From: a phage
Assembly: GCA_029942545.1 (NCBI GenBank)
Contig: GCA_029942545.1_4114.1
Reading direction: 5' to 3' (one strand)
Length of the DNA stretch: 64,000 nucleotides
The notes below the pieces were generated by a model. The model saw only the letters and a program-made list of their open reading frames with translations. It was not told the origin of the DNA and did not search any database. Positions 1-16,803 of the stretch are shown here, piece after piece; within the stretch, counting starts at the first letter, position 1, and each line of letters begins with the position of its first letter. The translations under genes were made by a program, and so were the position numbers.

Positions 1-25
1 TCTCCCCGATACTAGGAGAATCAAA

Positions 26-264: not shown

Positions 265-402
265 ATGAATCCTAACGGTTTAATTTACAGTACTCCTAAA
301 ACGAAAGCAGATAAAGCGAAAGCACGTAAAGCGAAAGTAAAGGAGTACATCAAGCAAGGCATGACGCGAAAGGCGGCGATTCTGAAAGCTAAAAATAAAT
401 GA
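265..402 (+). CDS. small basic hypothetical protein (45 aa)
   Basis: ATG 265 directly after upstream stop; lysine-rich product; stop TGA 400-402. Confidence 0.3.
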   Translation: MNPNGLIYSTPKTKADKAKARKAKVKEYIKQGMTRKAAILKAKNK

Positions 403-605
403 AAAAGTGGTTGACTTCGGTCAGCCATTTTGCTATTATATATTCATTGAGAGATAGCTCACTAGCCCACAGGGTGCAGGAGTGTATCTATTGTATAATG
501 ATTGAGTACAGAAAACTATTTTAAAGTATTTGATAAAAAGTACTTGCATACTATCTCAATAGGCGTATAATGTTTTACATCGCAAGGGGAAACGGTTTCC
601 CCTGG
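401..605 (+). repeat. intergenic cassette R, copy 1 (terminator-like hairpin / promoter-like TTGACT-N17-TATTAT, conserved box AGCCCACAGGGTGCA, second promoter, 5' hairpin)
   Basis: A-run + hairpin TGGTTGAC/GTCAGCCA 408-427 + T-rich tract; box 464-478; near-identical copies at ~2091, 4096, 7238, 9163. Confidence 0.6.
544..571 (+). promoter_or_regulatory. sigma70-type promoter (TTGCAT-N16-TATAAT)
   Basis: -35 544-549, -10 566-571; followed by hairpin 586-602 and RBS AAGGAAA before ATG 623. Confidence 0.55.
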
Positions 606-622
606 TAATAAGGAAACGAATC

Positions 623-964
623 ATGACTATTGCAATTGCTCAATCTAACTTTGAAAACGAAATCATCGCTCAGGTACTGCGTTTAAATGATGGTCGGGCC
701 GAAATCAATTACGGTTTCAATAGTGGTGGATGTGAAAAATATCAGTACTTTATAACTGCTGATGGCGGTGTCCTGGGCATCAATACCGTTATTGTAAACA
801 TTCAGAAAATTAATTTCAATGATCCAGACGATAGCCAGTTTTACATCACGGGCGTAGACGTGAACTATGAGGATGACTCACTAACTGATGATCACACTGG
901 TGAGAAGTTAGAAAGTGCATACGGTGAAGATGATTATCAGTCCGGTCCAGAAGATTTCGAATAA
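623..964 (+). CDS. hypothetical protein (113 aa)
   Basis: ORF track; RBS AAGGAAA 6 nt upstream; own promoter and 5' hairpin. Confidence 0.7.
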   Translation: MTIAIAQSNFENEIIAQVLRLNDGRAEINYGFNSGGCEKYQYFITADGGVLGINTVIVNIQKINFNDPDDSQFYITGVDVNYEDDSLTDDHTGEKLESAYGEDDYQSGPEDFE

Positions 965-978
965 TATTAAAAAATAGT

Positions 979-1006
979 TTGACAATAGTTTTTAGTACTG
1001 TATAAT
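979..1006 (+). promoter_or_regulatory. sigma70-type early promoter (TTGACA-N16-TATAAT)
   Basis: -35 979-984, -10 1001-1006; AGTACTG in spacer; conserved TTTACAT downstream. Confidence 0.6.
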
Positions 1007-1018
1007 AGTTTACATGAA

Positions 1019-1038
1019 GGGGAGAAATGATTCTCCCC
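1019..1038 (+). other. conserved 5'-UTR hairpin (GGGGAGAA-ATGA-TTCTCCCC)
   Basis: perfect 8-bp inverted repeat just downstream of -10; recurs with compensatory changes before many early genes. Confidence 0.55.
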
Positions 1039-1056
1039 ACTAAGAGGAAAAACAAA

Positions 1057-1269
1057 ATGGCTAATATCCGCACTGTACTGAAAAATGCAAAACAAGTTTT
1101 ATTTTCTGATCATGAAAATTTCAACAAGGATATCACAGGTGTTCGGAATATCAAAGATGTAAAAAGTGTTATGGGTATCTATTGCAATATGAAACGTGTT
1201 GGCACGTTCGGCGATAAAGTACTATACCAGGCAGGGGATTACAATTTTACACTGACTATCATTAACTAA
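1057..1269 (+). CDS. hypothetical protein (70 aa)
   Basis: track ORF 1027 starts inside the hairpin loop; ATG 1057 has RBS AAGAGG upstream, so start moved. Confidence 0.6.
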   Translation: MANIRTVLKNAKQVLFSDHENFNKDITGVRNIKDVKSVMGIYCNMKRVGTFGDKVLYQAGDYNFTLTIIN

Positions 1270-1288
1270 AAATATTATCACAGTACTA

Positions 1289-1317
1289 TTGACAACGTTT
1301 GATAGTACTGGCATAAT
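1289..1317 (+). promoter_or_regulatory. sigma70-type promoter (TTGACA-N17-CATAAT)
   Basis: -35 1289-1294, -10 1312-1317. Confidence 0.55.
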
Positions 1318-1360
1318 AACTTTTATCAAGACAACGCATATTAATTTAAGGAATACTAAA

Positions 1361-1540
1361 ATGGCTATTATCGCAAAAACTGAAATCATCGGCCTGGATT
1401 CTATCATCATGACGTTTGAAGATCAAAAAGGGATGTATGTAGTTTCCTATGGTGATTATGTTCGGGAGTATGAAACGGTAGACGAAGCCTTTGAAAGTTA
1501 CATTCGCCAGGTGAATAAAGCATACGACGACTACCGCTAA
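1361..1540 (+). CDS. hypothetical protein (59 aa)
   Basis: in-frame ATG 1361 preceded by AAGGAA; track start 1289 lies in the promoter (non-ATG codon). Confidence 0.55.
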   Translation: MAIIAKTEIIGLDSIIMTFEDQKGMYVVSYGDYVREYETVDEAFESYIRQVNKAYDDYR

Positions 1541-1567
1541 AATATATTACCAGTACTATTAAATCTA

Positions 1568-1595
1568 TTGACAATGATTGATAGTACTGTATAAT
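1568..1595 (+). promoter_or_regulatory. sigma70-type promoter (TTGACA-N16-TATAAT)
   Basis: -35 1568-1573, -10 1590-1595. Confidence 0.6.
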
Positions 1596-1639
1596 AAGTT
1601 TTATAAACAGTAGTTAACTTAACCTAAGAGAGAAACAAA

Positions 1640-1783
1640 ATGATCGCACTGGATTCATTCATCGACGCAGTACTGGCAAAAACTGGCGAGGATCTGACCG
1701 CAGAACAATACGCGATGATCGAGCAATGCCAGCAAAACGGTAAATCGGTGAAAGATACTGTTAAGATTATCCGCAAGATGTAA
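1640..1783 (+). CDS. small hypothetical protein (47 aa)
   Basis: ATG 1640 with AGAGAGAAA upstream; stop TAA 1781-1783; followed by hairpin terminator. Confidence 0.45.
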   Translation: MIALDSFIDAVLAKTGEDLTAEQYAMIEQCQQNGKSVKDTVKIIRKM

Positions 1784-1790
1784 GAATATA

Positions 1791-1820
1791 GCCCACTGGT
1801 TAACGCTGGTGGGCTTTAAT
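1791..1820 (+). terminator. putative intrinsic terminator
   Basis: GCCCAC...GTGGGC stem followed by TTTAATCATTT. Confidence 0.45.
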
Positions 1821-1888
1821 CATTTACCCTATACAATGCCAGTACTAAACCGTTTAACTCGTTAGAATGCATTACAGGACGTTTAACA

Positions 1889-2086
1889 ATGATTAGCATG
1901 AAATCAGTACAAAAACAAATTGATACATTATCAAAAATTAAACGTAAACAGTACTCATTAGAATATACAATCAATGGTAACTATCATCTAATGAAAGAAA
2001 ATAATTTTATAGTCATTGATGAATCATTGCAGATCATTAGTATAGTACTGAAAGCATTAATCAATGACAGAAAAAAGTTAAAATAA
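1889..2086 (+). CDS. hypothetical protein (65 aa)
   Basis: ORF track; weak RBS. Confidence 0.4.
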   Translation: MISMKSVQKQIDTLSKIKRKQYSLEYTINGNYHLMKENNFIVIDESLQIISIVLKALINDRKKLK

Positions 2087-2090
2087 TCTA

Positions 2091-2234
2091 TTGACAAATT
2101 ATGCCAGTACTGGCATAATACTTACATCAAGACGAGAACGTCACTAACCCATAGGGTGCACAAATGTAGCTGTCTAATATTGATCAAAAAATGATCTGAT
2201 CAATACTTGATCAATTTGCGTAAAGTAGTATAAT
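2091..2234 (+). repeat. intergenic cassette R, copy 2 (variant: promoter TTGACA-N17-CATAAT, box AACCCATAGGGTGCA, GATC cluster, second promoter TTGATC-N16-TATAAT)
   Basis: box 2146-2160; four GATC within 2182-2212; second promoter 2207-2234. Confidence 0.5.
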
Positions 2235-2417
2235 TCTATGCAGTTGGTTAGACGAAAGGTTATGATTAGTAGTGGAAGTGTATAAAAATTTTCATGGTGT
2301 GGTGATCCGCACATATGGGGATGAATATGTCGTGTCGTATGGATTGGAAAAAGTAAGAACAAGTAATATACTTGTCGCGTTACAGTACTATAGTATTTTT
2401 ATAATGAGGTTAAAATA

Positions 2418-2675
2418 ATGGCTGTAGGATTCACGAAAGATGGGGCCGAGCAAGACGAGATTAACGCAGTGATTCAGGCCGCTGTTAACCACGCTAGAAC
2501 GCAAATTAACGCACAAATAGAATCACTGATACATTGCCTCGACTGCGGCGATAAAATCCCTGAGAATCGCCGCCAGGCAGTTAAGGGGTGTAAGTACTGC
2601 ATCACTTGCCAGGCTGATCATGATAGCATATTCAAACGCAATCCCCGTAATTGTTGGCATAGATCTATGAGATAA
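2418..2675 (+). CDS. DksA/TraR-family C4 zinc-finger protein
   Basis: CLDCGDKIPENRRQAVKGCKYCITCQ matches the TraR pattern Cx2C-N17-Cx2C with conserved IPExRR; RBS GAGG. Confidence 0.75.
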   Translation: MAVGFTKDGAEQDEINAVIQAAVNHARTQINAQIESLIHCLDCGDKIPENRRQAVKGCKYCITCQADHDSIFKRNPRNCWHRSMR

Positions 2676-2681
2676 AAAGTA

Positions 2682-2709
2682 TTGACAGTGCTGTTAGTTA
2701 GTGTATAAT
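2682..2709 (+). promoter_or_regulatory. sigma70-type promoter (TTGACA-N16-TATAAT)
   Basis: -35 2682-2687, -10 2704-2709. Confidence 0.55.
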
Positions 2710-2738
2710 ATTTTATATCTTAACTGAGGATTGAAATC

Positions 2739-3095
2739 ATGGGTATACAACATATCACGCGTACTACTGACAATGGTGAAATCACTGGTTATCAAGTACA
2801 AGGCAAAGTAGCACAATTGCAGTACTGGTTTGTTAAACGTGGCATTGTCGCACCAGATCTTGATTATGATCGTGTAGCGTTTATTGATTCTCTTTATGTT
2901 GATCCCGATAATCGCGGTAACGGTGAAGGTACTGAATTAATGAATGCCTTTATTGATGCCGCCGATGATTCAGATTGTATCATCTTAGAATGCGATACGG
3001 GAGAAGATAACGCATTTAATCTTAAAGAATGGTATGAAAGTTTTGGTTTTGAAGTACTGATGGACTGCGAATATCCTATAATGATTTTATCCTAG
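2739..3095 (+). CDS. GNAT-like N-acetyltransferase (small)
   Basis: LYVDPDNRGNGEGTELMNAFI fits GNAT motif A (R-x-x-G-x-G after a beta strand); RBS GAGGA. Confidence 0.55.
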   Translation: MGIQHITRTTDNGEITGYQVQGKVAQLQYWFVKRGIVAPDLDYDRVAFIDSLYVDPDNRGNGEGTELMNAFIDAADDSDCIILECDTGEDNAFNLKEWYESFGFEVLMDCEYPIMILS

Positions 3096-3098
3096 TAC

Positions 3099-3126
3099 TT
3101 GCAATTAGTTTTAAGTACTGTATAAT
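3099..3126 (+). promoter_or_regulatory. sigma70-type promoter (TTGCAA-N16-TATAAT)
   Basis: -35 3099-3104, -10 3121-3126; hairpin 3139-3157 follows. Confidence 0.55.
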
Positions 3127-3174
3127 AGTTTACATGAAGGGGAGAATAGTTCTCCCCACTACAAGGAAAGACAA

Positions 3175-3363
3175 ATGCAAAACTTATCAAGTATTTTAGT
3201 ACAAGATGATTTCGGTAATCCTGGAAGTGCTATCATTGTTCGGGGCAATAAGGCAACGTTTGTTATTGCTGGTGGACCTGTACAGCGTAGCATTAAAAAC
3301 AATGCAGTTACAATCAATAATGTTCGCTATCGCTTAGATAAAGAATTGATTCATAAACTTTAA
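3175..3363 (+). CDS. hypothetical protein (62 aa)
   Basis: ORF track; promoter + GGGGAGAA hairpin + RBS AAGGAAAG upstream. Confidence 0.6.
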   Translation: MQNLSSILVQDDFGNPGSAIIVRGNKATFVIAGGPVQRSIKNNAVTINNVRYRLDKELIHKL

Positions 3364-3371
3364 AAAAGTAT

Positions 3372-3399
3372 TTGACAAAGCATTATAGTACTGTATAAT
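3372..3399 (+). promoter_or_regulatory. sigma70-type promoter (TTGACA-N16-TATAAT)
   Basis: -35 3372-3377, -10 3394-3399; hairpin 3412-3431. Confidence 0.6.
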
Positions 3400-3448
3400 A
3401 GTTTACATGAAGGGGAGAAATGATTCTCCCCACTAAGAGGAAAGAAAC

Positions 3449-3661
3449 ATGCAAGGTCAACTAATCGTTCGTAAATGGTCTGATACTAACGAAAAACCGT
3501 GGGATGTTCAATATATCGGACCGGACGGTGTTTCACGTTATCAACCTGGCGTAACGCATAGTACTGAGCAATATGCCGCCGCTCACCGTGAACGCCTGTT
3601 AGAATCTATGAAACAGGGATTCTGTGAAAAATTCATTCAAGATCATTGGCTGAAAGATTAA
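3449..3661 (+). CDS. hypothetical protein (70 aa)
   Basis: ORF track; RBS AAGAGGAAAG. Confidence 0.6.
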   Translation: MQGQLIVRKWSDTNEKPWDVQYIGPDGVSRYQPGVTHSTEQYAAAHRERLLESMKQGFCEKFIQDHWLKD

Positions 3662-3678
3662 TAGAAGGAGTACAGCTT

Positions 3679-3771
3679 ATGCAAATGAATCCGATGATTA
3701 TTGTTTTAGCTGTACTTATGAACATTCATGCAATAGTAGAAGTATTAACGCAATCAGGAGTAATAAAATGA
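3679..3771 (+). CDS. small hydrophobic peptide (30 aa)
   Basis: RBS AGAAGGAG 8 nt upstream of ATG 3679; below track cutoff. Confidence 0.3.
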   Translation: MQMNPMIIVLAVLMNIHAIVEVLTQSGVIK

Positions 3772-3941
3772 TCCAAGTAGAATTATCAGTACTGAAAGAT
3801 CTGTTTTATCGGTTAGGTACTAATGGCGAGTATCCTAAAAGTGATACCGCAAAACTTTTTGTATCACTCGACTTATGGCAACGCGAACAATTAGTAATGT
3901 CCTGGCGTAAAGGTAAAGCAGATAGCGAGGTGAAAGCATGA
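3768..3941 (+). CDS. small hypothetical protein (57 aa)
   Basis: ATGA overlap with upstream ORF; contains RLGTNGEY, reminiscent of the family A motif. Confidence 0.4.
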   Translation: MIQVELSVLKDLFYRLGTNGEYPKSDTAKLFVSLDLWQREQLVMSWRKGKADSEVKA

Positions 3942-4087
3942 AAGAATTCTTATTCGAAGTAGTGTTTCAAGGTGTCGGTAGCAACCAACTGATTCGCTCA
4001 AGTGGTTACAATGTTAACCAGGCATGGAATAACATTAAACAAATGTACCCGAACGCTATCACCTATCGCAACCCGAAACAAGTTTAA
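3938..4087 (+). CDS. small hypothetical protein (49 aa)
   Basis: ATGA overlap; stop TAA 4085-4087; followed by cassette R copy 3. Confidence 0.4.
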   Translation: MKEFLFEVVFQGVGSNQLIRSSGYNVNQAWNNIKQMYPNAITYRNPKQV

Positions 4088-4095
4088 AAATAATT

Positions 4096-4263
4096 GAAAA
4101 AGGGATTGACTCCGGTCAGTCCCTTTGCTATTATATACGCATAGAAACAAATCAGCCCACAGGGTGCATAAATGTATCTATTATATGCTGGTGGCTAGTA
4201 CTATCAAGTACTGAAAACTATTTTATAAAAAGTACTTGCAAAGTATCACGATAAGCGTATAAT
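4096..4263 (+). repeat. intergenic cassette R, copy 3
   Basis: hairpin GGGATTGAC-TCCG-GTCAGTCCC 4102-4123 + T-rich; box AGCCCACAGGGTGCA 4154-4168; promoter TTGCAA-N16-TATAAT 4236-4263. Confidence 0.6.
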
Positions 4264-4351
4264 GTTTTACATCAGGACGGGGAACGAAATAAGTAACCCC
4301 GTTAAGTAGTCCAGGAGTAAGACATACGAAAACCTCCCCTGATAAAATAGT

Positions 4352-4379
4352 TTGACAATAGAAATTAAACGAGTATAAT
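4352..4379 (+). promoter_or_regulatory. sigma70-type promoter (TTGACA-N16-TATAAT)
   Basis: -35 4352-4357, -10 4374-4379. Confidence 0.55.
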
Positions 4380-4409
4380 ACTTACATCAACCACAAAGAG
4401 GAATACAAA

Positions 4410-4610
4410 ATGAAACATTTTACTTTCGGTGTAGTAGGCTTTACAGTATCCAGCGGCGTTTATAAATCAGAACGCGGTGCTAAAAATGCAGCAAGTCGGG
4501 CGTATGGTTCACAGCGTGACTTACAGGTCGGTTATATTAGTAACATTAATAACATGTTTATTCCTGTTGCACAGCGTAAAGCGGGTAACATGAAATGGGA
4601 AACAATTTGA
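4410..4610 (+). CDS. hypothetical protein (66 aa)
   Basis: ORF track; RBS AAGAGGAA. Confidence 0.6.
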   Translation: MKHFTFGVVGFTVSSGVYKSERGAKNAASRAYGSQRDLQVGYISNINNMFIPVAQRKAGNMKWETI

Positions 4611-4619
4611 TAAAATAGT

Positions 4620-4647
4620 TTGACAATAGTTTTTAGTACTGTATAAT
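4620..4647 (+). promoter_or_regulatory. sigma70-type promoter (TTGACA-N16-TATAAT)
   Basis: near-identical to promoter 979-1006. Confidence 0.6.
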
Positions 4648-4677
4648 AGTTTACATCTTAATTAATAAGGAAACATC

Positions 4678-4812
4678 ATGAAAGCAGCAAACAACACTAA
4701 AAAAGCAACCAATCCCCTGGCTGGCTGGAAGTTAGATTTATCCGATGAAGTGGTTTGCACAAATCGTAATGTAGTTGAAGCTGAAAAGAAATTACGAAAA
4801 GAAAACAAATAA
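4678..4812 (+). CDS. small hypothetical protein (44 aa)
   Basis: RBS TAAGGAAA before ATG 4678; promoter upstream; the overlapping minus-strand track ORF 4662-4988 is rejected. Confidence 0.4.
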   Translation: MKAANNTKKATNPLAGWKLDLSDEVVCTNRNVVEAEKKLRKENK

Positions 4813-4815
4813 GTA

Positions 4816-4843
4816 TTGACAAAGTATCTTAGTACTGTATAAT
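4816..4843 (+). promoter_or_regulatory. sigma70-type promoter (TTGACA-N16-TATAAT)
   Basis: -35 4816-4821, -10 4838-4843; hairpin GAGGGGAA/TTCCCCTC 4858-4876. Confidence 0.6.
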
Positions 4844-4899
4844 AGTTTACATCAAGTGAGGGGAATGGTTCCCCTCCTAACAAAAAGAGAGAAATTAAA

Positions 4900-5223
4900 A
4901 TGACTATGTTCCTTACCCAGAAAGTAGAAATGAAAATTGTAACTTCCTTTGACATTAAAGTTAATCGGTGGACTGATAGCCACGGCAATACTTACCACTC
5001 ATGCTACGTGTCTGCATTGATTGGTGACCGCTGGGAAGACCTGGGACATGAAACCTTTACTTACGGTTACGGTACACAAGGCGAATACACGGGCTTGGAG
5101 ATCATTAAAGAAACCGTTATAGGTTTCAACCCGAAAGAGAAAGTACTACACAGAATTGAGAAAGAGATCAACAAAGAAATTACAGTTCGATACTACGATG
5201 TAAAACGTAAGAAAGACATGTAA
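4900..5223 (+). CDS. hypothetical protein (107 aa)
   Basis: ORF track; RBS AAGAGAGAAA. Confidence 0.6.
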   Translation: MTMFLTQKVEMKIVTSFDIKVNRWTDSHGNTYHSCYVSALIGDRWEDLGHETFTYGYGTQGEYTGLEIIKETVIGFNPKEKVLHRIEKEINKEITVRYYDVKRKKDM

Positions 5224-5245
5224 TAGAATCCATTTAAAGTACTAT

Positions 5246-5274
5246 TTGACATTGCCCAGATAGTACTTTATAAT
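5246..5274 (+). promoter_or_regulatory. sigma70-type promoter (TTGACA-N17-TATAAT)
   Basis: -35 5246-5251, -10 5269-5274. Confidence 0.55.
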
Positions 5275-5322
5275 AGACTCTAACTTGTAGTACTAATTAA
5301 CTTAACTAATAGGATGTACACC

Positions 5323-5718
5323 ATGATTACTAAATTCTTCGCTACCCGTGAACAAGCTCGCATCGTTGCCCGTGAAGAAGGTGAAACATTTAAAGACATG
5401 GGCAAAGATGCACCGAAAGGACAACGCTGGGCGGTACAGTTCAAAGAGATCTCTGATATTGTGAATTCACCTGAGCCTGTACTTACAGCAGCAGAACTAA
5501 AGCAAGCTCAAGAACTGGCTGAAGTACTGAACGCTCAAGATGACTTTTTGAAAGGTTCTGATATTGAAGTTACAGTTAACGCAAATGCATGGACTCACGC
5601 GGATCACCTGGCAAACCTTAAGCGTCCAAGTGAACTGATTCGTAACCAGAAAGAGATCCGTCATGACCGTAAAGGAAACCGTGTAACAGTATACAGTAAA
5701 CGCCGCCAGGTTATCTAA
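5323..5718 (+). CDS. hypothetical protein (131 aa)
   Basis: AGGA 5311-5314 is 8 nt upstream of ATG 5323; track ATG 5314 sits too close to the RBS; alternative start 5314. Confidence 0.6.
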   Translation: MITKFFATREQARIVAREEGETFKDMGKDAPKGQRWAVQFKEISDIVNSPEPVLTAAELKQAQELAEVLNAQDDFLKGSDIEVTVNANAWTHADHLANLKRPSELIRNQKEIRHDRKGNRVTVYSKRRQVI

Positions 5719-5741
5719 TAACTTTGCAGTACTAACAACAC

Positions 5742-5766
5742 GGCGGGAACTATTCCCGCCTTTTTT
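5742..5766 (+). terminator. intrinsic terminator
   Basis: GGCGGGAA-CTA-TTCCCGCC followed by TTTTTT. Confidence 0.8.
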
Positions 5767-5780
5767 ATAGGATAAACAAA

Positions 5781-6035
5781 ATGATTAAGGTTCAACTATC
5801 AAACGATAATGTATTACGGGTACACTATAAAGCCCCACAGAGAATCATCACAAAGGCCGTACAGCTTGCTAATGAGTTTATTAATGGTAGTCTATTGCCT
5901 AGGAAGTTAAGCAACGGGAAACTACGTGTTATCGATGTAGACACTAACAATAGAATAGTGATCGAGAGTACTGGAAAAATTAATCTATATGAACACCAAC
6001 AATACAATAAAAAAATAAAACTAATATCACGTTGA
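5781..6035 (+). CDS. hypothetical protein (84 aa)
   Basis: ORF track; weak RBS. Confidence 0.45.
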   Translation: MIKVQLSNDNVLRVHYKAPQRIITKAVQLANEFINGSLLPRKLSNGKLRVIDVDTNNRIVIESTGKINLYEHQQYNKKIKLISR

Positions 6036-6060
6036 CAGTACTCAAATGTTTTAGTATTAT
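6032..6060 (+). promoter_or_regulatory. sigma70-type promoter (TTGACA-N17-TATTAT)
   Basis: -35 6032-6037, -10 6055-6060. Confidence 0.55.
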
Positions 6061-6093
6061 GTATCTATACCAACACAGAGAGAGAGAAACAAA

Positions 6094-6312
6094 ATGAAAT
6101 TATCTAAAATCGAAAAGAAAACTATTGATGAAGCAGTGAAGCACGGTTATACCTTTCGTAATGATTCACACTTCACTAGTTTTCAACAGGGAAACCGTAC
6201 CATCAAAAAACTCATTGATAAAGGTTTACTCACTAAGGTTGATAACGGGAACGGTGTAGAATATCAACCGACAGAAGACGCATTATCACTAAAGAAATAT
6301 TCTATTATCTAA
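6094..6312 (+). CDS. hypothetical protein (72 aa)
   Basis: ORF track; leader duplicated before the next gene. Confidence 0.55.
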   Translation: MKLSKIEKKTIDEAVKHGYTFRNDSHFTSFQQGNRTIKKLIDKGLLTKVDNGNGVEYQPTEDALSLKKYSII

Positions 6313-6341
6313 TTGACAGTACTCAAATGTTTTAGTACTAT
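6313..6341 (+). promoter_or_regulatory. sigma70-type promoter (TTGACA-N17-TACTAT), duplicate of 6032-6060
   Basis: same 17-nt spacer GTACTCAAATGTTTTAG as the upstream promoter. Confidence 0.5.
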
Positions 6342-6369
6342 GAATGCATACCAACACGGGGAAAACAAA

Positions 6370-6597
6370 ATGATTACTTTAGAAAAACGTATCAAAGAGA
6401 CTACCACGCTGGTGGAACTGTTAACCGTTCTTAAATGCCGGGTAACTCCATTCAGTACACCGGACTTTATCAACATGGTGGACGTTAACGGTCGCTATCG
6501 TATTGCGGTCGAACAAGGTACGGCAAAAGTATTCAGTACTAAAAATACGCGTGAAGTATTCCACGCAGTTCAAGTAAAAAAAAGTAGTTGCCATTGA
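6370..6597 (+). CDS. hypothetical protein (75 aa)
   Basis: ATG 6370 with leader CGGGGAAAACAAA; track start 6313 lies inside the promoter. Confidence 0.55.
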   Translation: MITLEKRIKETTTLVELLTVLKCRVTPFSTPDFINMVDVNGRYRIAVEQGTAKVFSTKNTREVFHAVQVKKSSCH

Positions 6598-6644
6598 TAG
6601 TAAAGTACTGTAATATAGTTTCATTAACTCAAGGAGTCAACACA

Positions 6645-7229
6645 ATGCGTAACTATACTAAATTCATCCGTTCACTTCATGCAATGGAAACCAACAAAGA
6701 GATCCTTTCAGCTTGTCGGTTAGCTGGACTGGAGATCGTCGGTGCGGGTTCTTCCCGTATTGTATTCGCTTTAAATGATCGGTTAGTGATTAAGGTCGCG
6801 AATTGTGATGCGGGTGTAGAACAAAATGAAACTGAATGTAAGGTATGGAATTTTTTAGATTATGACCGTCCGCACCTTAAACAGTTCTTTGCTAAAGTGC
6901 ATATGCATTTATGCGATCCTGATAATCTGTTTATTGTTATGGATCGTTTGAGTACTGCAAGCAAAGGCAGTGTAAAGCATGTAAACGCGTGCAATGAGTT
7001 AAAGTACAATATTAAACGTAACACTATTGAACGCCATCACCATTTCGCTGATGCTCTCAATCACGTTGATGATACATTATCCACACTAACGATAAGAGAT
7101 ATCAGAAAACAGAATATCGGCCAGGATCGCAACGGCTTGATTAAAGTACTTGATTACGGTTTAACCCGCAATATCTGGAATCAGTACTATAAAAAACGTG
7201 ATGTTAATGCGATAACTATAACACGATAA
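6645..7229 (+). CDS. protein-kinase-like protein (putative Ser/Thr kinase)
   Basis: Gly-rich loop IVGAGSSRIVF, VIKV lysine, catalytic-loop-like RDIRKQNIG, DYG in place of DFG; RBS AAGGAG before ATG 6645. Confidence 0.55.
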   Translation: MRNYTKFIRSLHAMETNKEILSACRLAGLEIVGAGSSRIVFALNDRLVIKVANCDAGVEQNETECKVWNFLDYDRPHLKQFFAKVHMHLCDPDNLFIVMDRLSTASKGSVKHVNACNELKYNIKRNTIERHHHFADALNHVDDTLSTLTIRDIRKQNIGQDRNGLIKVLDYGLTRNIWNQYYKKRDVNAITITR

Positions 7230-7237
7230 AAAAGATT

Positions 7238-7398
7238 AAAAAAGGGATTGACTCCAGTCAGTCCCTTTGCTATTATATATTCATTGAGAGATAACTCACT
7301 GACCCATAGGGTGCGGAAGTGTATCTATTATATAAGTATTCAGTACTGAAAACTATTTGATAAAAAGTACTTGCAAACTATCTCAATGAGCGTATAAT
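7238..7398 (+). repeat. intergenic cassette R, copy 4
   Basis: hairpin GGGATTGAC-TCCA-GTCAGTCCC 7244-7265; box ACCCATAGGGTGC 7302-7314; promoter TTGCAA-N16-TATAAT 7371-7398. Confidence 0.6.
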
Positions 7399-7453
7399 GT
7401 TTTATATCGAGAGGGGGAAATGGTTCTCCCTGGTACTAAAAGGAATCAAGACG

Positions 7454-7675
7454 ATGACTACTATGACCTGCGTTCACGCTTCAAATCTTCTGAATGATGC
7501 AGCATTTAAAGCAGGTGAAGAATATCAATGCTATCGGGATGAAAATAAAAAAGTTTTCGTCGTTGATGCTAACGGTTTCCATATTGAATTACAATCCGGC
7601 TTCACTGGTGTTGATGGTAAATCAGTATGGGGCGTACAGGATGATAACGGTACATATCATTTTAAACGTAATTAA
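7454..7675 (+). CDS. hypothetical protein (73 aa)
   Basis: ATG 7454 preceded by AAAGGAA; track start 7397 is upstream, before the leader hairpin. Confidence 0.55.
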   Translation: MTTMTCVHASNLLNDAAFKAGEEYQCYRDENKKVFVVDANGFHIELQSGFTGVDGKSVWGVQDDNGTYHFKRN

Positions 7676-7678
7676 GTA

Positions 7679-7706
7679 TTGACAAAGTATATCAGTACTG
7701 TATAAT
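7679..7706 (+). promoter_or_regulatory. sigma70-type promoter (TTGACA-N16-TATAAT)
   Basis: -35 7679-7684, -10 7701-7706; hairpin 7719-7737. Confidence 0.6.
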
Positions 7707-7759
7707 AGTTTACATCAAGGGGAGAATAGCTCTCCCCACCAATAAAAGGAAACAAAATT

Positions 7760-8032
7760 ATGTCCAGCTACTCCGCTACTATGATTATTAAAGATATGAA
7801 CGGTAATCCTACTTCTGCTGGTGGATCATTTGGTAACATTAACTTAGATGGTCGGTTATCAATTGAATCAGCCATCAATGCCGCGAAAGAAGTTTTTAAG
7901 AATGAATGTACTGTAAGCAAGCTGGATTATATGGGCTTCGCTATCGAGAAAACTAATCGTTTTGTGGACTACAAAAAACCACTGATGATTGATACTAACC
8001 TGAAAGCAAACGAAGTGGAATACTTATTATGA
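7760..8032 (+). CDS. hypothetical protein (90 aa)
   Basis: ORF track; RBS AAAGGAAA. Confidence 0.6.
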   Translation: MSSYSATMIIKDMNGNPTSAGGSFGNINLDGRLSIESAINAAKEVFKNECTVSKLDYMGFAIEKTNRFVDYKKPLMIDTNLKANEVEYLL

Positions 8033-8220
8033 CAGTAGAAGAAGTTAAAAAAGTACTGGCAGTACTACGCTATCATAATCATTGTAAGGTGAAGAATGAT
8101 CCTGATTATCTTGATTCATCGCTGGAAGAGGATACACTACAAGCAATAAGCCATATGCAAAAAATGCTTAAGCGTATGACCGAAAAGAACAGGCCGGACT
8201 ATATCGGAAATAAAATTTAA
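8029..8220 (+). CDS. hypothetical protein (63 aa)
   Basis: ATGA overlap with upstream gene. Confidence 0.5.
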   Translation: MTVEEVKKVLAVLRYHNHCKVKNDPDYLDSSLEEDTLQAISHMQKMLKRMTEKNRPDYIGNKI

Positions 8221-8227
8221 AAAGTAC

Positions 8228-8255
8228 TTGCATTGTAAGTAAAACAAAGTATAAT
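8228..8255 (+). promoter_or_regulatory. sigma70-type promoter (TTGCAT-N16-TATAAT)
   Basis: -35 8228-8233, -10 8250-8255. Confidence 0.55.
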
Positions 8256-8303
8256 GTTTTGCATAGGGGGAGATATCCTCCCCCACTAATAAGGAGTACT
8301 AAA

Positions 8304-8528
8304 ATGGCTAACTTTGATGAACTGATGCGGGAAGTAGCTACCCTGGCAGAAGAGAAGAAATCATTTGATTCTATCTATAACACCGCTTACAGTGATTCAG
8401 TACTGGCATGTACTCAGGATCAAAAAGATGAACTGATCGCCACCTATCATGAAGCATGGAAGTACTACCGCCAATGGGAGAAAGAAGAAAGCGAGTCTAC
8501 CATCAACGGCATCAATAATCTAATCTAA
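8304..8528 (+). CDS. hypothetical protein (74 aa)
   Basis: ATG 8304 with RBS AAGGAG; track start 8259 falls in the leader hairpin. Confidence 0.55.
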   Translation: MANFDELMREVATLAEEKKSFDSIYNTAYSDSVLACTQDQKDELIATYHEAWKYYRQWEKEESESTINGINNLI

Positions 8529-8602
8529 AGTTTTATTTCAGTACTATTGACAATGCGTGATAGTACTGATGTGATAACTTTACTAACTAAAGGGGAAACA
8601 TA

Positions 8603-8860
8603 ATGGAACAGTTTAAAACGTATCGGGTAAATCCAATCGCTACAGCCTACGTAGAAGACCATAAAACATTACCAGTACAGACACCAATCAAAGGCCGTAT
8701 CTATCGTGCTATGCAGTGGAATAACGCCTATAATGGCTATAAAGCGGTAGCGGCTGCAATGTACTTAGGGGATGGCGAATGGTTTGATCCAAATAATCCT
8801 GGTGCACTCGATAGTACTGAACAAATGACATGGGCCGACTATATCGAAGATATTTCATAA
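8603..8860 (+). CDS. hypothetical protein (85 aa)
   Basis: ORF track; RBS AAGGGGAAA. Confidence 0.6.
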   Translation: MEQFKTYRVNPIATAYVEDHKTLPVQTPIKGRIYRAMQWNNAYNGYKAVAAAMYLGDGEWFDPNNPGALDSTEQMTWADYIEDIS

Positions 8861-8867
8861 AAACTAT

Positions 8868-8895
8868 TTGACAGTACTACAAGATAATGTATAAT
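8868..8895 (+). promoter_or_regulatory. sigma70-type promoter (TTGACA-N16-TATAAT)
   Basis: -35 8868-8873, -10 8890-8895. Confidence 0.55.
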
Positions 8896-8948
8896 GTTTT
8901 ACATAGAGCGGGGGAATAGTTCTCCCGCACCTTTAGGAGTAAAACATT

Positions 8949-9149
8949 ATGTCAATCGCTAACGAATTGGTTGCAGTACTGAATGAAGCAAAAGCCAACT
9001 GCATCGATGTACAGATCAAAGAGCTTGGCAATGGCTTGATCGGCTGTACTTGTACAGTGCAAACGGCTACCGATTATCGGGAAGTGGAATCACTCGAATC
9101 ACTGGTACGGTATATTAAAATCCTGGTAGAAGATTGGAGAATCATCTAA
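8949..9149 (+). CDS. hypothetical protein (66 aa)
   Basis: ORF track; RBS TAGGAG. Confidence 0.55.
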   Translation: MSIANELVAVLNEAKANCIDVQIKELGNGLIGCTCTVQTATDYREVESLESLVRYIKILVEDWRII

Positions 9150-9162
9150 CAAAAAAGAATAA

Positions 9163-9352
9163 AAAAAAGGGATTGACTCCGGTCAGTCCCTTTGCTATTA
9201 TATACGCATAGACAAAAACTAGCCCACAGGGTGCAGAGAAGTATCTATAAGATAGTTAATAACGGTGAGTAACTATCTGCTGGTGGATGTAATGCCAGTA
9301 CTCAAAACTATTTCAAAAAAGTATTGACAAAGTATATCAGTACTGAGATAAT
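9163..9352 (+). repeat. intergenic cassette R, copy 5
   Basis: hairpin GGGATTGAC-TCCG-GTCAGTCCC 9169-9190; box AGCCCACAGGGTGCA 9221-9235; promoter TTGACA-N17-GATAAT 9324-9352. Confidence 0.6.
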
Positions 9353-9406
9353 GTATCTCGTAGGGCGGCAATAGTGCAGCCCACCTCCAAAAGAGCGAGA
9401 TATAAA

Positions 9407-9622
9407 ATGGCGTTAACCAAACAAGAAATTATCGACCGTATCAAAGAGTCAACTGGCTGGTATGTTGGGGACCGTTTAATTGTTAAAGTTCTCGATTATT
9501 CAAATAATCCTCTTGCACCGGAACCAGTGGCATACAAATTATCCTGGATATCTGCGTTTAGCGGTAAGCGTGAAAGATGTGTGTACTATCCGAACACAGT
9601 CGGGCTACAGTTCTGTAAATAA
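9407..9622 (+). CDS. hypothetical protein (71 aa)
   Basis: ATG 9407 after leader; track start 9374 lies in the leader hairpin. Confidence 0.55.
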   Translation: MALTKQEIIDRIKESTGWYVGDRLIVKVLDYSNNPLAPEPVAYKLSWISAFSGKRERCVYYPNTVGLQFCK

Positions 9623-9640
9623 ATTTTAATAGAAAAAGTA

Positions 9641-9669
9641 TTGACAAAGTATATCAGTACTGCAATAAT
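9641..9669 (+). promoter_or_regulatory. sigma70-type promoter (TTGACA-N17-AATAAT), duplicate of 9324-9352
   Basis: promoter and leader (GTAGGGCGGCAAT...) duplicated for two consecutive genes. Confidence 0.5.
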
Positions 9670-9722
9670 GTATCTCGTAGGGCGGCAATGGTGCGACGGC
9701 CCACAAAGTTAGGAGATTCACC

Positions 9723-10049
9723 ATGAGTACTTCAATCGCTATCGTTAAAGCTTTCATCCGTACCAATTTCGACCGCATTACTGTTGATGGTAATGATCGG
9801 GAAGTAGAATACTCTTTCATTGTTGCACAAACCGCAAACGGTGCACGCTATATCTTAAACGATAGTGAAGCTAACCACTACTTCTATAATAAAGGATTAC
9901 ACTACATCCCTAGCGAAGTAGTCTACAGTAAGATGAATAAGCTGGTAGACAAGATTAACGCTAAAGGTACTATCGATTTACAGTACTGGACCGAAACCGA
10001 TCCAGAATACGGATCACATCGTTACCTGAATCCAGGAATTAAAATGTAA
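9723..10049 (+). CDS. hypothetical protein (108 aa)
   Basis: ORF track; RBS AGGAG. Confidence 0.6.
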   Translation: MSTSIAIVKAFIRTNFDRITVDGNDREVEYSFIVAQTANGARYILNDSEANHYFYNKGLHYIPSEVVYSKMNKLVDKINAKGTIDLQYWTETDPEYGSHRYLNPGIKM

Positions 10050-10056
10050 AAAGTAC

Positions 10057-10084
10057 TTGCATTGTACTTAGAATCAAGTATAAT
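10057..10084 (+). promoter_or_regulatory. sigma70-type promoter (TTGCAT-N16-TATAAT)
   Basis: -35 10057-10062, -10 10079-10084; leader hairpin follows. Confidence 0.55.
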
Positions 10085-10138
10085 GTTTTACATAGAGAGG
10101 GGGAAATGGTTCTCCCTCCTAAATTAAGGAGTTTTATC

Positions 10139-10540
10139 ATGACCTTCTCAATCACTTCCTTCGCTGACGTTTTAGTACTGGCTCGGACTTTTGGTAAAGA
10201 TGCACTGGAGTACGCTGTAAGTAATGGTACTCTCCAACCGGAACAATGCCGCATCATTGGAAACTGCAAACGTTGGGCGGTATCCAATACTATTGCACTA
10301 GAAAACTTCAACGATGGTAACAATGAGTATTCAGTTGATGCAGTATTCGAAGCCGTTGATCTTGGCGGTATCTATAACACTAACCTAAATGATGTGCGTA
10401 TCGTTCGCACGGGGTTCGGTGCTTATGATGTATCTATCCGTGAAGCTATGAACACCGGATACATTAGTAAGGACTTACTTGCTCACATCATGCAGCTATG
10501 GACGGAACGTAACGAAGCACGCACTATCTTAGGACTATAA
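10139..10540 (+). CDS. hypothetical protein (133 aa)
   Basis: ATG 10139 with RBS AAGGAG; track start 10106 is inside the leader hairpin. Confidence 0.6.
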   Translation: MTFSITSFADVLVLARTFGKDALEYAVSNGTLQPEQCRIIGNCKRWAVSNTIALENFNDGNNEYSVDAVFEAVDLGGIYNTNLNDVRIVRTGFGAYDVSIREAMNTGYISKDLLAHIMQLWTERNEARTILGL

Positions 10541-10564
10541 GCATTACACATCACCAAACATCAT

Positions 10565-10584
10565 AGGCCGCTCTCTAGCGGCCT
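10565..10584 (+). terminator. hairpin, possible terminator or 3' stabiliser
   Basis: AGGCCGCT-CTCT-AGCGGCCT perfect 8-bp stem; weak U tract. Confidence 0.4.
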
Positions 10585-10608
10585 TAACTATATCAGGAGG
10601 GCATACAT

Positions 10609-10818
10609 ATGTTCTATACAGTATACAGCGTTCTAGGTACGATTGCTGGCGTACATGATAATGTCAGTGATGCTATGCGTACAGTACTGCAACAGGTTCC
10701 ACTAAAGCCTAAGACCATTAAGCAGATGACAGCACGACTAACCAGGGCGACGGCTGGCGTGGAAGTATGGCAGGACTATGGGGATACACAGATAATCGTA
10801 AGCGTAACGAAGGATTAA
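10609..10818 (+). CDS. hypothetical protein (69 aa)
   Basis: ORF track; RBS AGGAGG. Confidence 0.55.
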   Translation: MFYTVYSVLGTIAGVHDNVSDAMRTVLQQVPLKPKTIKQMTARLTRATAGVEVWQDYGDTQIIVSVTKD

Positions 10819-11067
10819 TGCGTAAAAGGATTTAGTACTGATTCAGAAAAAAGTCAAGGCGTTTTTAAAATTATGCGTTAAAAAAATGCATAGGTAATCC
10901 CTTGACTTTTTTGAAATAAAAGGGATTGGACTATGGCAAAATGCGTAGGGGGCTAAAGGGCGGGTAACCTTAGCGACTTCGATAAAGGGGTATTACGAAT
11001 AAAATGTTATTGACTTTTTATATGAATCGTATAAAATATGATCGATAATAATTTTAAGGGAGTCCCT
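10817..11067 (+). promoter_or_regulatory. non-coding junction with iteron-like ATGCGT(A/T) repeats and a 13-bp inverted repeat
   Basis: ATGCGTA at 10818, 10941, 11068 and ATGCGTT at 10873; AAAAAAGTCAAGG 10847-10859 is the reverse complement of 10900-10912. Confidence 0.4.
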
Positions 11068-16802: not shown

Positions 16803-16803
16803 T

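What the first reader, a model, noticed from the sequence alone, without database searches (positions are those of the whole stretch)
6645..7229. Early-region protein-kinase-like gene
The 194-aa product carries, in the right order, a glycine-rich loop (GAGSSRIVF), a VIKV lysine, a catalytic-loop-like RDIRKQN and a DYG triplet. It is short for a canonical kinase, so it may be a minimal or atypical kinase, or a pseudokinase. Early phage kinases can reprogram host transcription and RNA turnover.
Basis: partly seen in the sequence, partly recalled or inferred. Interest (0 to 1): 0.55.

Follow-up and report, generated by a model that had tools for sequence, protein, structure and literature searches.

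The report
Minimal early kinase of a jumbo coliphage
This gene of a 350-kb E. coli phage encodes a stripped-down protein-kinase-like enzyme that keeps every catalytic residue but lacks the back half of a normal kinase; some databases already label it a kinase, but nobody has tested what it does.

Summary
ORF 6645-7229 (+) is a real 194-aa gene (dN/dS 0.04-0.18) in an Asteriusvirus jumbo coliphage, 98.4% identical to 121Q (gp308).

- **Catalytic residues:** profile alignments put K50, D152, N157 and D170 on the beta3 Lys, catalytic Asp, catalytic-loop Asn and DFG Asp. Across 158 homologues K50, R38, Q60, D170 and G172 are invariant, E64 is 157/158 and D152 is 151/158. A pseudokinase is therefore unlikely.
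- **Truncation:** the protein ends 24 residues after the DFG-like Asp (family median 22). Subdomains VIII-XI are missing, as in OspG/NleH.
- **Family:** it belongs to an uncurated family (phrog_4301, no Pfam model) of huge phages. That family is distinct from the T7 gp0.7-like kinase these phages also carry.
- **Expression:** the gene lies in a region dense in sigma-70 promoters that corresponds to the terminal repeat, so early expression is likely but inferred.
- **Prior notice:** the kinase resemblance is already in GenBank annotations and one paper. Substrate and role are unknown.

It is a new member of a known kind, of moderate interest.

The parts
6645..7229 (+). CDS for the 194-aa minimal protein-kinase-like protein. 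It is the orthologue of 121Q gp308, Sharanji gp063 (WNN14351.1), Turkey5 XMR01560.1 and fEgEco12 XBS49126.1.
   Evidence: phrog_4301 E=1.7e-42; dN/dS 0.04-0.18; AF2 pLDDT 94
6631..6636 (+). Shine-Dalgarno sequence AAGGAG, 8 nt upstream of the ATG
   Evidence: read directly from the sequence
6741..6767 (+). Glycine-rich loop G33-A-G-S-S-R-I-V-F41 (beta1-beta2). The family signature is GxGSSR[IV]VF, with an invariant Arg where ePKs have the third Gly.
   Evidence: R38 158/158, S36 150/158, G35 152/158
6786..6836 (+). Beta3 VIK Lys (K50) through the start of alphaC, with the invariant motif K-x-A-x-N-x-x-G-x-x-Q-N-x-x-E (E64 is the alphaC Glu)
   Evidence: K50 158/158, Q60 158/158, E64 157/158; K50 aligns with SteC K256
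7095..7115 (+). Catalytic loop R151-D152-I-R-K-Q-N157
   Evidence: aligned to HRDIKPSN of MKK4 and HRDVKPSN of MKK6; D152 151/158; position 157 is N/H/S/Q across the family
7152..7160 (+). DFG-equivalent D170-Y-G172. Only 22 residues follow G172, including one short conserved helix (175-182).
   Evidence: D170 and G172 158/158; aligned to DFG of MKK4/6; helix from the model; family median tail of 22 residues after the Asp
7241..7278 (+). 38-bp element 12 nt after the stop codon: a 12-bp-stem hairpin (terminator-like) whose stem holds a TTGACT -35 box, followed by a TATTAT -10 box. It probably closes this transcription unit and starts the next.
   Evidence: three copies in the window at 4099, 7241 and 9166; 0 expected
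6032..6341 (+). Nearest strong upstream sigma-70-like promoters: 6032-6060 TTGACA-17-TATTAT and 6313-6341 TTGACA-17-TACTAT. A weaker one lies at 6588-6616.
   Evidence: consensus scan only
1..10975 (+). Promoter-dense block of small + strand genes. It corresponds to the inner part of the 21.5-kb direct terminal repeat annotated in phage vB_Ec-M-J and is the presumed early region.
   Evidence: 10 perfect TTGACA-N16-18-TATAAT sites at 979-8895, against 0.17 expected for the whole window; repeat boundary mapped by BLASTN to window position ~10,975

Best explanation
The gene encodes a catalytically competent, minimal protein-kinase-like phosphotransferase.

**Anatomy.** It has a two-helix N-terminal extension and a complete kinase N-lobe: G-loop, beta3 Lys K50 and alphaC Glu E64. 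The C-lobe is reduced to alphaD, alphaE, the catalytic loop (D152...N157), the Mg-binding D170-Y-G and one short C-terminal helix. Subdomains VIII-XI are absent, that is, the activation segment, the P+1 loop and alphaF to alphaI.

**Expression.** It is most likely transcribed by host sigma-70 RNA polymerase very early, from the terminal-repeat region of the jumbo phage genome.

**Proposed function.** I infer that it transfers the gamma-phosphate of ATP to Ser/Thr (possibly Tyr) residues of host or phage proteins. The peptide-binding platform is missing, so it would have either low intrinsic specificity or specificity supplied by a partner. The role would be host takeover or counter-defence. 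This would be analogous to T7 gp0.7 and to the bacterial minimal effector kinases OspG and NleH.

**What is shown and what is inferred.**
- Shown computationally: the gene is real, the fold is kinase-like, the catalytic residues are conserved, the truncation is family-wide, and the promoter and repeat context holds.
- Inferred: ATP use, protein substrates, early timing and biological role.
For: **Fold.** The AF2 model built on 52 homologues has pLDDT 94 and pTM 0.90.
- Foldseek against PDB: Lpg2603 kinase, MEK1 and p38 at the top.

**Sequence.**
- Pkinase and PK_Tyr_Ser-Thr are the top Pfam hits.
- The PDB profile search hits only kinases, in a colinear alignment from beta4 to DFG.
- The SteC N-lobe is hit at E=0.0029, with K50 on K256.
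- hhalign against a T7 gp0.7 family profile gives 86.5% probability, E=4.6e-6.

**Catalytic competence.** In 158 homologues K50, D170, G172, R38 and Q60 are invariant, E64 is 157/158 and D152 is 151/158. A basic residue at D+2 occurs in 87/158.

**Truncation is native.** The tail after the DFG Asp has a median of 22 residues in 155 single-domain homologues.

**Precedent.** OspG and NleH lack subdomains VIII-XI yet are active kinases (PMC12756638). SteC is another minimal kinase (PMC13395416).

**Early context.** Ten perfect sigma-70 promoters lie at 979-8895, and the orthologue sits within the annotated terminal repeat.

**Role hint.** Distant relatives occur as tandem arrays and as two copies inside a 3248-aa tape-measure protein. 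That fits a domain deployed in the host at the start of infection. T7 kinase disarms defences by promiscuous phosphorylation (PMC13645617).

**Selection.** dN/dS is 0.04-0.18.
Against: - No biochemical data exist for any member of the family.
- All Pfam kinase hits are below the gathering threshold.
- The catalytic-loop Asn is not conserved across the wider family: N 47, H 49, S 48, Q 13 of 158.
- alphaF, the hydrophobic core of normal kinase C-lobes, is absent. Activity may need a partner, as for OspG with E2~Ub or Bud32 with Kae1.
- Early timing is inferred from promoter consensus and from homology to an annotated repeat, not from transcript data.
- These phages already carry a T7-kinase-like gene, so the takeover or anti-defence role may belong to that gene instead.
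- I could not superimpose coordinates to check active-site geometry.
Confidence: 0.55

Rival explanations
1. It is a small-molecule kinase: an enzyme with the same fold that phosphorylates a metabolite, sugar, lipid or LPS component, antibiotic-like compound or signalling nucleotide rather than a protein. It would work like the APH, choline-kinase or Kdo-kinase families.
Against: No HMM hit to the APH, choline-kinase or Kdo/WaaP families at E<=10 or among 52 family members. APH and ChoK enzymes have large helical C-terminal substrate-binding subdomains, which are also missing here. All sequence-level hits are to protein kinases. Minimal kinases of the same architecture (OspG, NleH) are protein kinases.
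Confidence: 0.15
2. It is a partner-dependent ATPase or regulatory ATP-binding module, or a kinase that is inactive alone. In this reading it works like Bud32 in KEOPS, or like OspG, which needs E2~ubiquitin. ATP binding or hydrolysis would control a bound host or phage protein rather than broadly phosphorylating targets.
Against: A complete set of phosphotransfer residues is conserved, including the catalytic Asp, which pure ATP-binding scaffolds often lose. There is no conserved neighbouring gene across distant family members: contexts differ. Tandem arrays of the domain argue for an autonomous unit.
Confidence: 0.15
3. It uses the kinase fold for non-canonical chemistry, such as AMPylation, glutamylation or nucleotide transfer. 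SelO, SidJ and other atypical kinase-fold enzymes work this way.
For: The G-loop is unusual (GxGSSR, with an invariant Arg replacing the third Gly) and the catalytic-loop Asn is variable. The top Foldseek hit is an atypical Legionella effector kinase, Lpg2603.
Against: Order and spacing of Lys, Glu, Asp, Asn and DFG Asp are canonical for phosphotransfer. No hit to SelO or SidJ-type families. Nothing positive supports this beyond the oddities listed.
Confidence: 0.05
4. It is not a kinase-fold protein at all: the motifs are chance matches, or the fold is SAICAR-synthase/ATP-grasp-like. A related version is that it is a degenerate pseudokinase.
Confidence: 0.03

Closest known systems
OspG (Shigella) and NleH1/NleH2 (EHEC/EPEC) minimal effector kinases
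   Same: The architecture is the same: a kinase core that stops shortly after subdomain VII and lacks subdomains VIII-XI, yet keeps the Lys, Asp, Asn and Asp catalytic set. These proteins are proven active kinases (PMC12756638), so they are the best model for how this protein works.
Phage T7 gp0.7 protein kinase (T7K) family (phrog_2828 / phrog_15752)
   Same: Both are early phage genes with a kinase fold. They share an N-terminal helical extension and N-lobe register (C-x-x-A-G-[LF]-x-x-[IL]-G-x-G ... V-I-K-[VI]). Profile-profile probability is 86.5%, E=4.6e-6, over 138 columns. T7K is a promiscuous Ser/Thr/Tyr kinase that disarms defence systems (PMC13645617).
   Different: It is a different family: there is no hit to phrog_2828, 15752 or 18305. 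It has DYG rather than the DPV motif typical of T7K homologues, GxGSSR rather than GNGHFS, and no shut-off domain. Asteriusviruses carry a separate, true T7K-like gene (Sharanji WNN14432.1, phrog_15752 E=1e-97) that lies outside this window.
SteC (Salmonella) minimal kinase
   Same: It is the best PDB sequence hit for the broad family profile: N-lobe, E=0.0029, with K50 on the catalytic K256 and a similar V-[IV]-K-[IV]-x-x-N-x-x-G stretch. [quoted passage not shown]
   Different: SteC still has alphaF and an activation segment with a regulatory phospho-site (S379). Its minimal active domain is about 220 aa. The similarity is marginal and confined to the N-lobe.
C-lobe-less kinase domains of phage and plasmid 'polyvalent proteins' (Iyer, Burroughs, Anand, de Souza and Aravind 2017, PMC5512222)
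   Same: This is a phage-borne Ser/Thr/Tyr-kinase-superfamily domain that has lost the C-terminal subdomain while keeping the active-site residues. It occurs both stand-alone and inside giant multidomain proteins. Distant relatives of the present family likewise occur as tandem arrays and inside a tape-measure protein.
   Different: The diagnostic features they list are a Glu before strand 2, a Gln in the last N-lobe strand and an insert between the catalytic His and Asp. These are not evident in this family's signature. Their family is mainly from Verrucomicrobia-Chlamydia and Bacteroidetes elements.
Bud32/PRPK and RIO atypical kinases
   Different: There are no sequence-profile hits. These are cellular proteins with roles in tRNA modification and ribosome maturation and with dedicated partners. 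They do not match better than ordinary ePKs.

Membership tests
Protein kinase-like (PK-like) fold superfamily | Bilobal fold: a five-stranded N-lobe sheet plus alphaC, a hinge, then alphaD/alphaE and the catalytic and Mg-binding loops | tested here: met
Protein kinase-like (PK-like) fold superfamily | Conserved nucleotide-binding and phosphotransfer residues: G-loop, beta3 Lys, alphaC Glu, catalytic Asp, DFG Asp | tested here: met
   In 158 homologues K50 is 158/158, E64 157/158, D152 151/158 and D170 158/158. The residues align to MKK4/6 motifs and to SteC K256.
Canonical eukaryotic-type protein kinase domain (Pfam PF00069 / PF07714) | Score at or above Pfam's gathering threshold | tested here: not met
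   17.7 bits against 31.7 needed for PF00069, and 18.5 against 23.1 for PF07714. 13 of 52 family members hit Pkinase, best E-value 0.0014.
Canonical eukaryotic-type protein kinase domain (Pfam PF00069 / PF07714) | Subdomains VIII-XI: activation segment/APE and alphaF to alphaI | tested here: not met
   The protein ends 24 residues after D170. The Pfam alignment covers only profile positions 29-152 of 263. The family median tail is 22 residues.
T7 gp0.7 kinase family (phrog_2828/15752/18305) | Significant match to the family HMMs | tested here: not met
   The PHROG scan of the protein lists only phrog_4301 and three chance-level hits. T7K and the Sharanji T7K-like protein hit phrog_2828/15752 strongly.
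T7 gp0.7 kinase family (phrog_2828/15752/18305) | Remote homology by profile-profile comparison | tested here: inconclusive
   hhalign of A2 against A3 gives 86.5% probability, E=4.6e-6, covering the N-terminal helix to alphaE only. Against T7K alone it gives 56%.
T7 gp0.7 kinase family (phrog_2828/15752/18305) | DPV (or DP-x) motif in place of DFG (PMC13645617) | tested here: not met
   The motif here is D-Y-G; across the family D-[YF]-G, with G172 158/158.
OspG/NleH minimal effector kinases | Kinase core lacking subdomains VIII-XI | tested here: met
   the definition comes from PMC12756638
OspG/NleH minimal effector kinases | Detectable sequence homology to family members | tested here: not met
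   hhalign of A2 against NleH1 (ECs_0848) gives 1.2% probability, E=0.043.
OspG/NleH minimal effector kinases | Activation by binding E2~ubiquitin | not testable with these tools
   This needs biochemistry. It is implausible in a bacterial host, which has no ubiquitin system.
Polyvalent-protein C-lobe-less kinase domain (Iyer et al. 2017) | Loss of the whole C-terminal subdomain with an intact active site | tested here: met
   description
Polyvalent-protein C-lobe-less kinase domain (Iyer et al. 2017) | Glu N-terminal to strand 2, conserved Gln in the last N-lobe strand, and an insert between the catalytic His and Asp | tested here: inconclusive
   No conserved Glu before strand 2 and no conserved Gln in beta5 appear in the family signature. 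Their reference alignment could not be obtained for a direct comparison.
YrbL-PhoP_reg (PF10707) | Sequence homology to YrbL | tested here: not met
   hhalign of A2 against E. coli YrbL gives 0.5% probability. Only 2 of 52 members give weak Pfam hits.
phrog_4301 (PHROGs, unknown function) | Significant full-length HMM match | tested here: met
   E=1.7e-42, residues 1-190
Anti-phage defence kinases (PADLOC PD-T4-6; Stk-type) | Match to the defence-system kinase models | tested here: not met
   Only weak local hits (E 0.002-0.04) over the catalytic loop to DFG stretch. NCBIfam PknB_PASTA_kin scores 12 bits against a cut-off of 450.

The most novel reading that the evidence does not exclude
This could be the founding, testable member of a large uncurated family with at least 134 clusters (50% identity) at E<=1e-10 and 1758 at E<=1e-3. 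In this reading it is the smallest self-sufficient protein kinase domain known, with a core of about 165 aa and no alphaF. Huge phages would deploy it at the very start of infection in three forms: as a stand-alone terminal-repeat gene, as tandem arrays, and embedded in ejected tape-measure proteins. It would hyper-phosphorylate host proteins and broadly disarm defence systems, as a second, independent solution alongside the T7-type kinase.
Probability: 0.25. Interest if true: 0.65.

Novelty: new member of a known kind. Interest (0 to 1): 0.42.

Why it matters
Phage protein kinases have recently moved from curiosity to a general counter-defence principle: T7 kinase was reported in Nature in 2026 to disarm defence systems by promiscuous phosphorylation.

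Asteriusvirus jumbo phages carry two unrelated-looking kinases. One is T7-like. The other is this minimal one, which belongs to a family spread through huge phages.

If it is active, it would show how far a kinase domain can be pared down, with no activation segment and no alphaF to alphaI. It would also give a compact early effector that is easy to test genetically in an E. coli phage. At 194 aa and with K-12 as a host, the experiments are easy.

If it proves to be a partner-dependent ATPase or a small-molecule kinase, that would also be informative for annotating more than a thousand 'hypothetical' phage proteins.

Tried and rejected
- **Alternative start.** TTG at 6588 is rejected on the homologue N-termini and the ribosome-binding site.
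- **Antisense ORFs.** The ORFs at 6421-6624 and 6860-7024 on the - strand are mechanical only, with nothing to support them.
- **RNA genes.** No Rfam family in 1-12,000 and no tRNA in the window.
- **Paralogue in the window.** None by tblastn. The T7K-like second kinase is outside the window.
- **First AF2 run.** With only 10 sequences the C-terminal half was poor (pLDDT 65). It was superseded by the 52-sequence run.
- **AFDB50 fold search.** The library was unavailable.
- **Membership of other families.** YrbL, OspG/NleH by sequence, NCBIfam and PADLOC defence kinases are all negative or chance-level.
- **Fused domains.** The Pfam scan of larger relatives returned only the tape-measure core PF10145 and DUF5661.
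- **Literature.** I found no experimental work on this gene. One genome paper calls the Sharanji orthologue 'another protein kinase, function unknown'. The phAPEC6 virion paper does not mention a protein kinase in its text; I did not inspect its protein table. The fEgEco12 paper does not discuss the gene.
- **Run of ~190-aa ORFs at 36-43 kb.** Checked for paralogy; none was detected.
- **Not attempted.** I did not test for Ser/Thr/Tyr depletion in early proteins. It would be confounded by the second kinase and by rough gene calls.

Full report
**Where the window comes from.** The region 6000-8000 is 98.4% identical to Escherichia phage 121Q. It is 89-91% identical to other 350-380-kb Asteriusvirus jumbo coliphages, including phAPEC6, UE-S1, Turkey5, G17 and Sharanji. 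The finding's ORF is 121Q gp308, annotated 'hypothetical protein'.

**The observation.**
- ATG 6645 is preceded by AAGGAG (6631-6636), and the ORF runs to the stop at 7227-7229, giving 194 aa.
- The four motifs are present as written: GAGSSRIVF (33-41), VIKV (48-51), RDIRKQN (151-157) and DYG (170-172).
- The spacings D152 to N157 (5 residues) and N157 to D170 (13 residues) equal those of canonical kinases (PKA numbering, from my own knowledge).
- The gene is under clear purifying selection among five orthologues (dN/dS 0.04-0.18, dS up to 0.35).
- There is no paralogue in the window, and no RNA family or tRNA overlaps it.

**Sequence-level classification.**
- Pfam gives Pkinase (E=0.0025) and PK_Tyr_Ser-Thr (E=0.0014) as the best hits, both below gathering scores. 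They cover only profile positions 29-152 of 263, that is, beta3 to just past DFG.
- PHROGs places the protein in phrog_4301, of unknown function (E=1.7e-42).
- NCBIfam and PADLOC give only chance-level local hits.
- A profile of 10 homologues searched against all PDB sequences returns protein kinases only (best MKK4, E=2.7e-4). The alignment is colinear from beta4 through alphaE. It puts the query consensus 'kdiskknlG' (window R151-D-I-R-K-Q-N-I-G159) on HRDIKPSNIL and 'GlikvLdyG' on GNIKLCDFG.
- A broader profile of 52 sequences hits the SteC N-lobe crystal construct (8jbi, E=0.0029), with K50 on SteC K256. K256 is the experimentally validated invariant lysine (PMC13395416).

**Structure.**
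- AlphaFold2 with 10 sequences modelled only the N-lobe confidently. With 52 homologues the model reached pLDDT 94 and pTM 0.90.
- Its elements in order are:
  - two N-terminal helices (4-12, 17-26);
  - beta1-beta3 (30-34, 38-42, 47-52);
  - a long alphaC (55-73);
  - beta5 (96-100);
  - two helices (109-120, 129-145) in the places of alphaD and alphaE;
  - two short strands flanking the catalytic and Mg loops (158-160, 166-168);
  - one short helix (175-182).
- Foldseek against PDB is led by the Legionella kinase Lpg2603, MEK1, APH(2'') and p38. SAICAR synthases score similarly.
- I could not obtain coordinates, so residue equivalence rests on the profile alignments above.

**Family.**
- A full HMMER scan of 1.84 billion cluster representatives found 1758 proteins at E<=1e-3 and 134 at E<=1e-10. 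The word-indexed search found 58, none with a precomputed Pfam domain.
- The closest relatives are in RaK2 (194 aa, TM 0.85), PBECO4 (UniProt name 'Protein kinase domain-containing protein'), CBB and Xanthomonas phage XbC2 gp8. More distant ones are small 'protein kinase-like' proteins of other phages.
- Distant members sit on 247-424-kb contigs with huge-phage gene content. One lies beside a GNAT gene and rIIA/rIIB-like genes.
- Aligning 158 single-domain homologues to the family HMM gives this signature: G33 138, G35 152, S36 150, S37 136, R38 158, V40 130, F41 133, K50 158, A52 151, G57 157, Q60 158, N61 155, E64 157, D152 151, G159 157, D170 158, Y/F171 147 and G172 158, each out of 158.
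- The catalytic-loop Asn position is N, H, S or Q. A basic residue follows the catalytic Asp at +2 in 87/158.
- The tail after the DFG-like Asp has a median of 22 residues and is <=40 in 85% of 155 proteins.
- Absence of subdomains VIII-XI is therefore a family trait, not a truncated gene. Near-invariance of the catalytic set argues against a pseudokinase.

**Relation to known kinases.**
- *Same architecture.* OspG and NleH lack subdomains VIII-XI and are active kinases (PMC12756638). They show no significant sequence link to this family.
- *Nearest by profile comparison.* The T7 gp0.7 family gives 86.5% probability and E=4.6e-6. The N-terminal helices and the AG[LF]xx[IL]GxG...VIK[VI] register are shared. 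Family HMMs do not match, and the DFG position reads DYG rather than the DPV typical of T7K homologues.
- *Second kinase in these phages.* Asteriusviruses carry a separate true T7K-like gene (Sharanji WNN14432.1, phrog_15752 E=1e-97). It was noted in the Sharanji paper, and jumbo-phage T7K homologues were noted in the 2026 Nature paper. It lies about 46 kb away and outside this window.
- *Polyvalent-protein kinases.* Iyer et al. 2017 described C-lobe-less kinase domains in phage polyvalent proteins. The theme is the same, but their diagnostic residues are not evident here, so identity is unresolved.
- *YrbL.* It is unrelated by hhalign.

**Genomic context and timing.**
- The first ~11 kb of the window is a block of small + strand genes with 10 perfect TTGACA-N16-18-TATAAT promoters at 979-8895. 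The whole window holds 12, against 0.17 expected.
- Twelve nucleotides after the kinase stop lies a 38-bp element. It is a 12-bp-stem hairpin that contains a -35 box and is followed by a -10 box. It occurs three times in the window (4099, 7241, 9166).
- In phage vB_Ec-M-J the orthologue (EcMJ_042, 16,690-17,274) lies inside the annotated 21,525-bp direct terminal repeat. The repeat's inner boundary maps to window position ~10,975, which is where the promoter-dense block ends.
- Early, host-RNA-polymerase-driven expression is thus a reasonable inference, but no transcript data were found.

**Mechanism.**
- The best-supported reading (confidence ~0.55 for the whole chain, ~0.85-0.9 for 'ATP-binding kinase-fold enzyme') is an active minimal protein kinase made early. 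It would phosphorylate host or phage proteins with little intrinsic specificity, or with partner-supplied specificity. The purpose would be takeover or counter-defence.
- Support from relatives: the domain occurs in 2-4 tandem copies (P0029, P0027, P0021). It also occurs twice inside a 3248-aa protein whose N-terminus is a tape-measure core (PF10145, E=5.9e-30). That fits a module delivered into, or acting in, the newly infected cell.
- The rivals cannot be excluded computationally:
  - a small-molecule kinase (0.15);
  - a partner-dependent ATPase or regulator (0.15);
  - non-canonical chemistry (0.05);
  - not a kinase fold (0.03).

**Novelty and verdict.**
- The kinase resemblance of this exact gene is already public. 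Turkey5, Turkey3 and fEgEco12 annotate it as a Ser/Thr kinase. UniProt flags the PBECO4 orthologue. The Sharanji paper lists it as 'another protein kinase, function unknown'.
- New here:
  - the confident structural confirmation;
  - the family signature (GxGSSR, KxAxNxxGxxQNxxE, D[YF]G);
  - the demonstration that loss of subdomains VIII-XI is family-wide;
  - the distinction from the T7K family;
  - the terminal-repeat location;
  - the tandem and tape-measure-embedded relatives.
- I rate it a new member of a known kind (minimal kinase-fold enzymes of phages and effectors). It is correct and moderately interesting, and it is readily testable.

Noticed in passing
window 4099-4136, 7241-7278, 9166-9203 (diverged copy at 404-441): A 38-bp element, AAAGGGATTGACTCCRGTCAGTCCCTTTGCTATTATAT, is repeated three times against 0 expected. 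It is a 12-bp-stem hairpin with a TTGACT -35 box inside the stem and a TATTAT -10 box just after it. It looks like a combined terminator and promoter punctuating the early region. The U-tract is short (TTT), so termination efficiency is uncertain.
   Followed up: partly
window 979-8895, + strand: Ten perfect sigma-70 consensus promoters (TTGACA-N16/17-TATAAT) lie here, against 0.17 expected for the whole window. Many share the spacer ending AGTACTG. Nearly every small gene in this block seems to have its own consensus promoter.
   Followed up: partly
window ~1-10975: This stretch corresponds to the inner part of the 21.5-kb direct terminal repeat annotated in phage vB_Ec-M-J. The boundary maps to ~10,975, where the promoter-dense + strand block ends. 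In virion DNA these genes, including the kinase-like gene, would be present twice.
   Followed up: partly
window 58038-59180 and 60004-60936: A T4 Rnl1-type RNA ligase (PF09511 and PF20819) and a polynucleotide kinase-phosphatase (AAA_33 plus HAD_PNKP, E=8e-44) lie about 0.8 kb apart. This is the classic tRNA-repair pair that counters anticodon nucleases such as PrrC.
   Followed up: no
P0135 (3248 aa, metagenomic; residues ~859-1033 and ~1090-1270): A giant tape-measure protein (PF10145 core at 125-315) carries two tandem copies of this minimal kinase-like domain with all motifs intact (GSSR, LKVA, QNE, D..N, LID[IL]G). It also has an HExxH-like motif (HEHGH) further on. This suggests the domain can be delivered with the virion.
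   Followed up: partly
P0021 (923 aa), P0027 (693 aa), P0029 (490 aa): These proteins consist of 4, 3 and 2 head-to-tail copies of the minimal kinase-like domain, each with complete catalytic motifs. I do not know whether they are real polyproteins or gene-calling fusions.
   Followed up: no
L005:26186-26857 (-) = Sharanji WNN14432.1 (outside the window): Asteriusviruses carry a second, T7 gp0.7-like kinase of 224 aa with no shut-off domain (phrog_15752 E=1e-97). It is only remotely similar to the gene studied here (hhalign 7.6% probability against the single sequence). These phages therefore encode two different kinase-fold proteins.
   Followed up: yes
window 19159-19710 and 19983-20549: Two neighbouring ~185-aa ORFs are weak paralogues (26% identity, E=3e-7). 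Their function is unknown.
   Followed up: no
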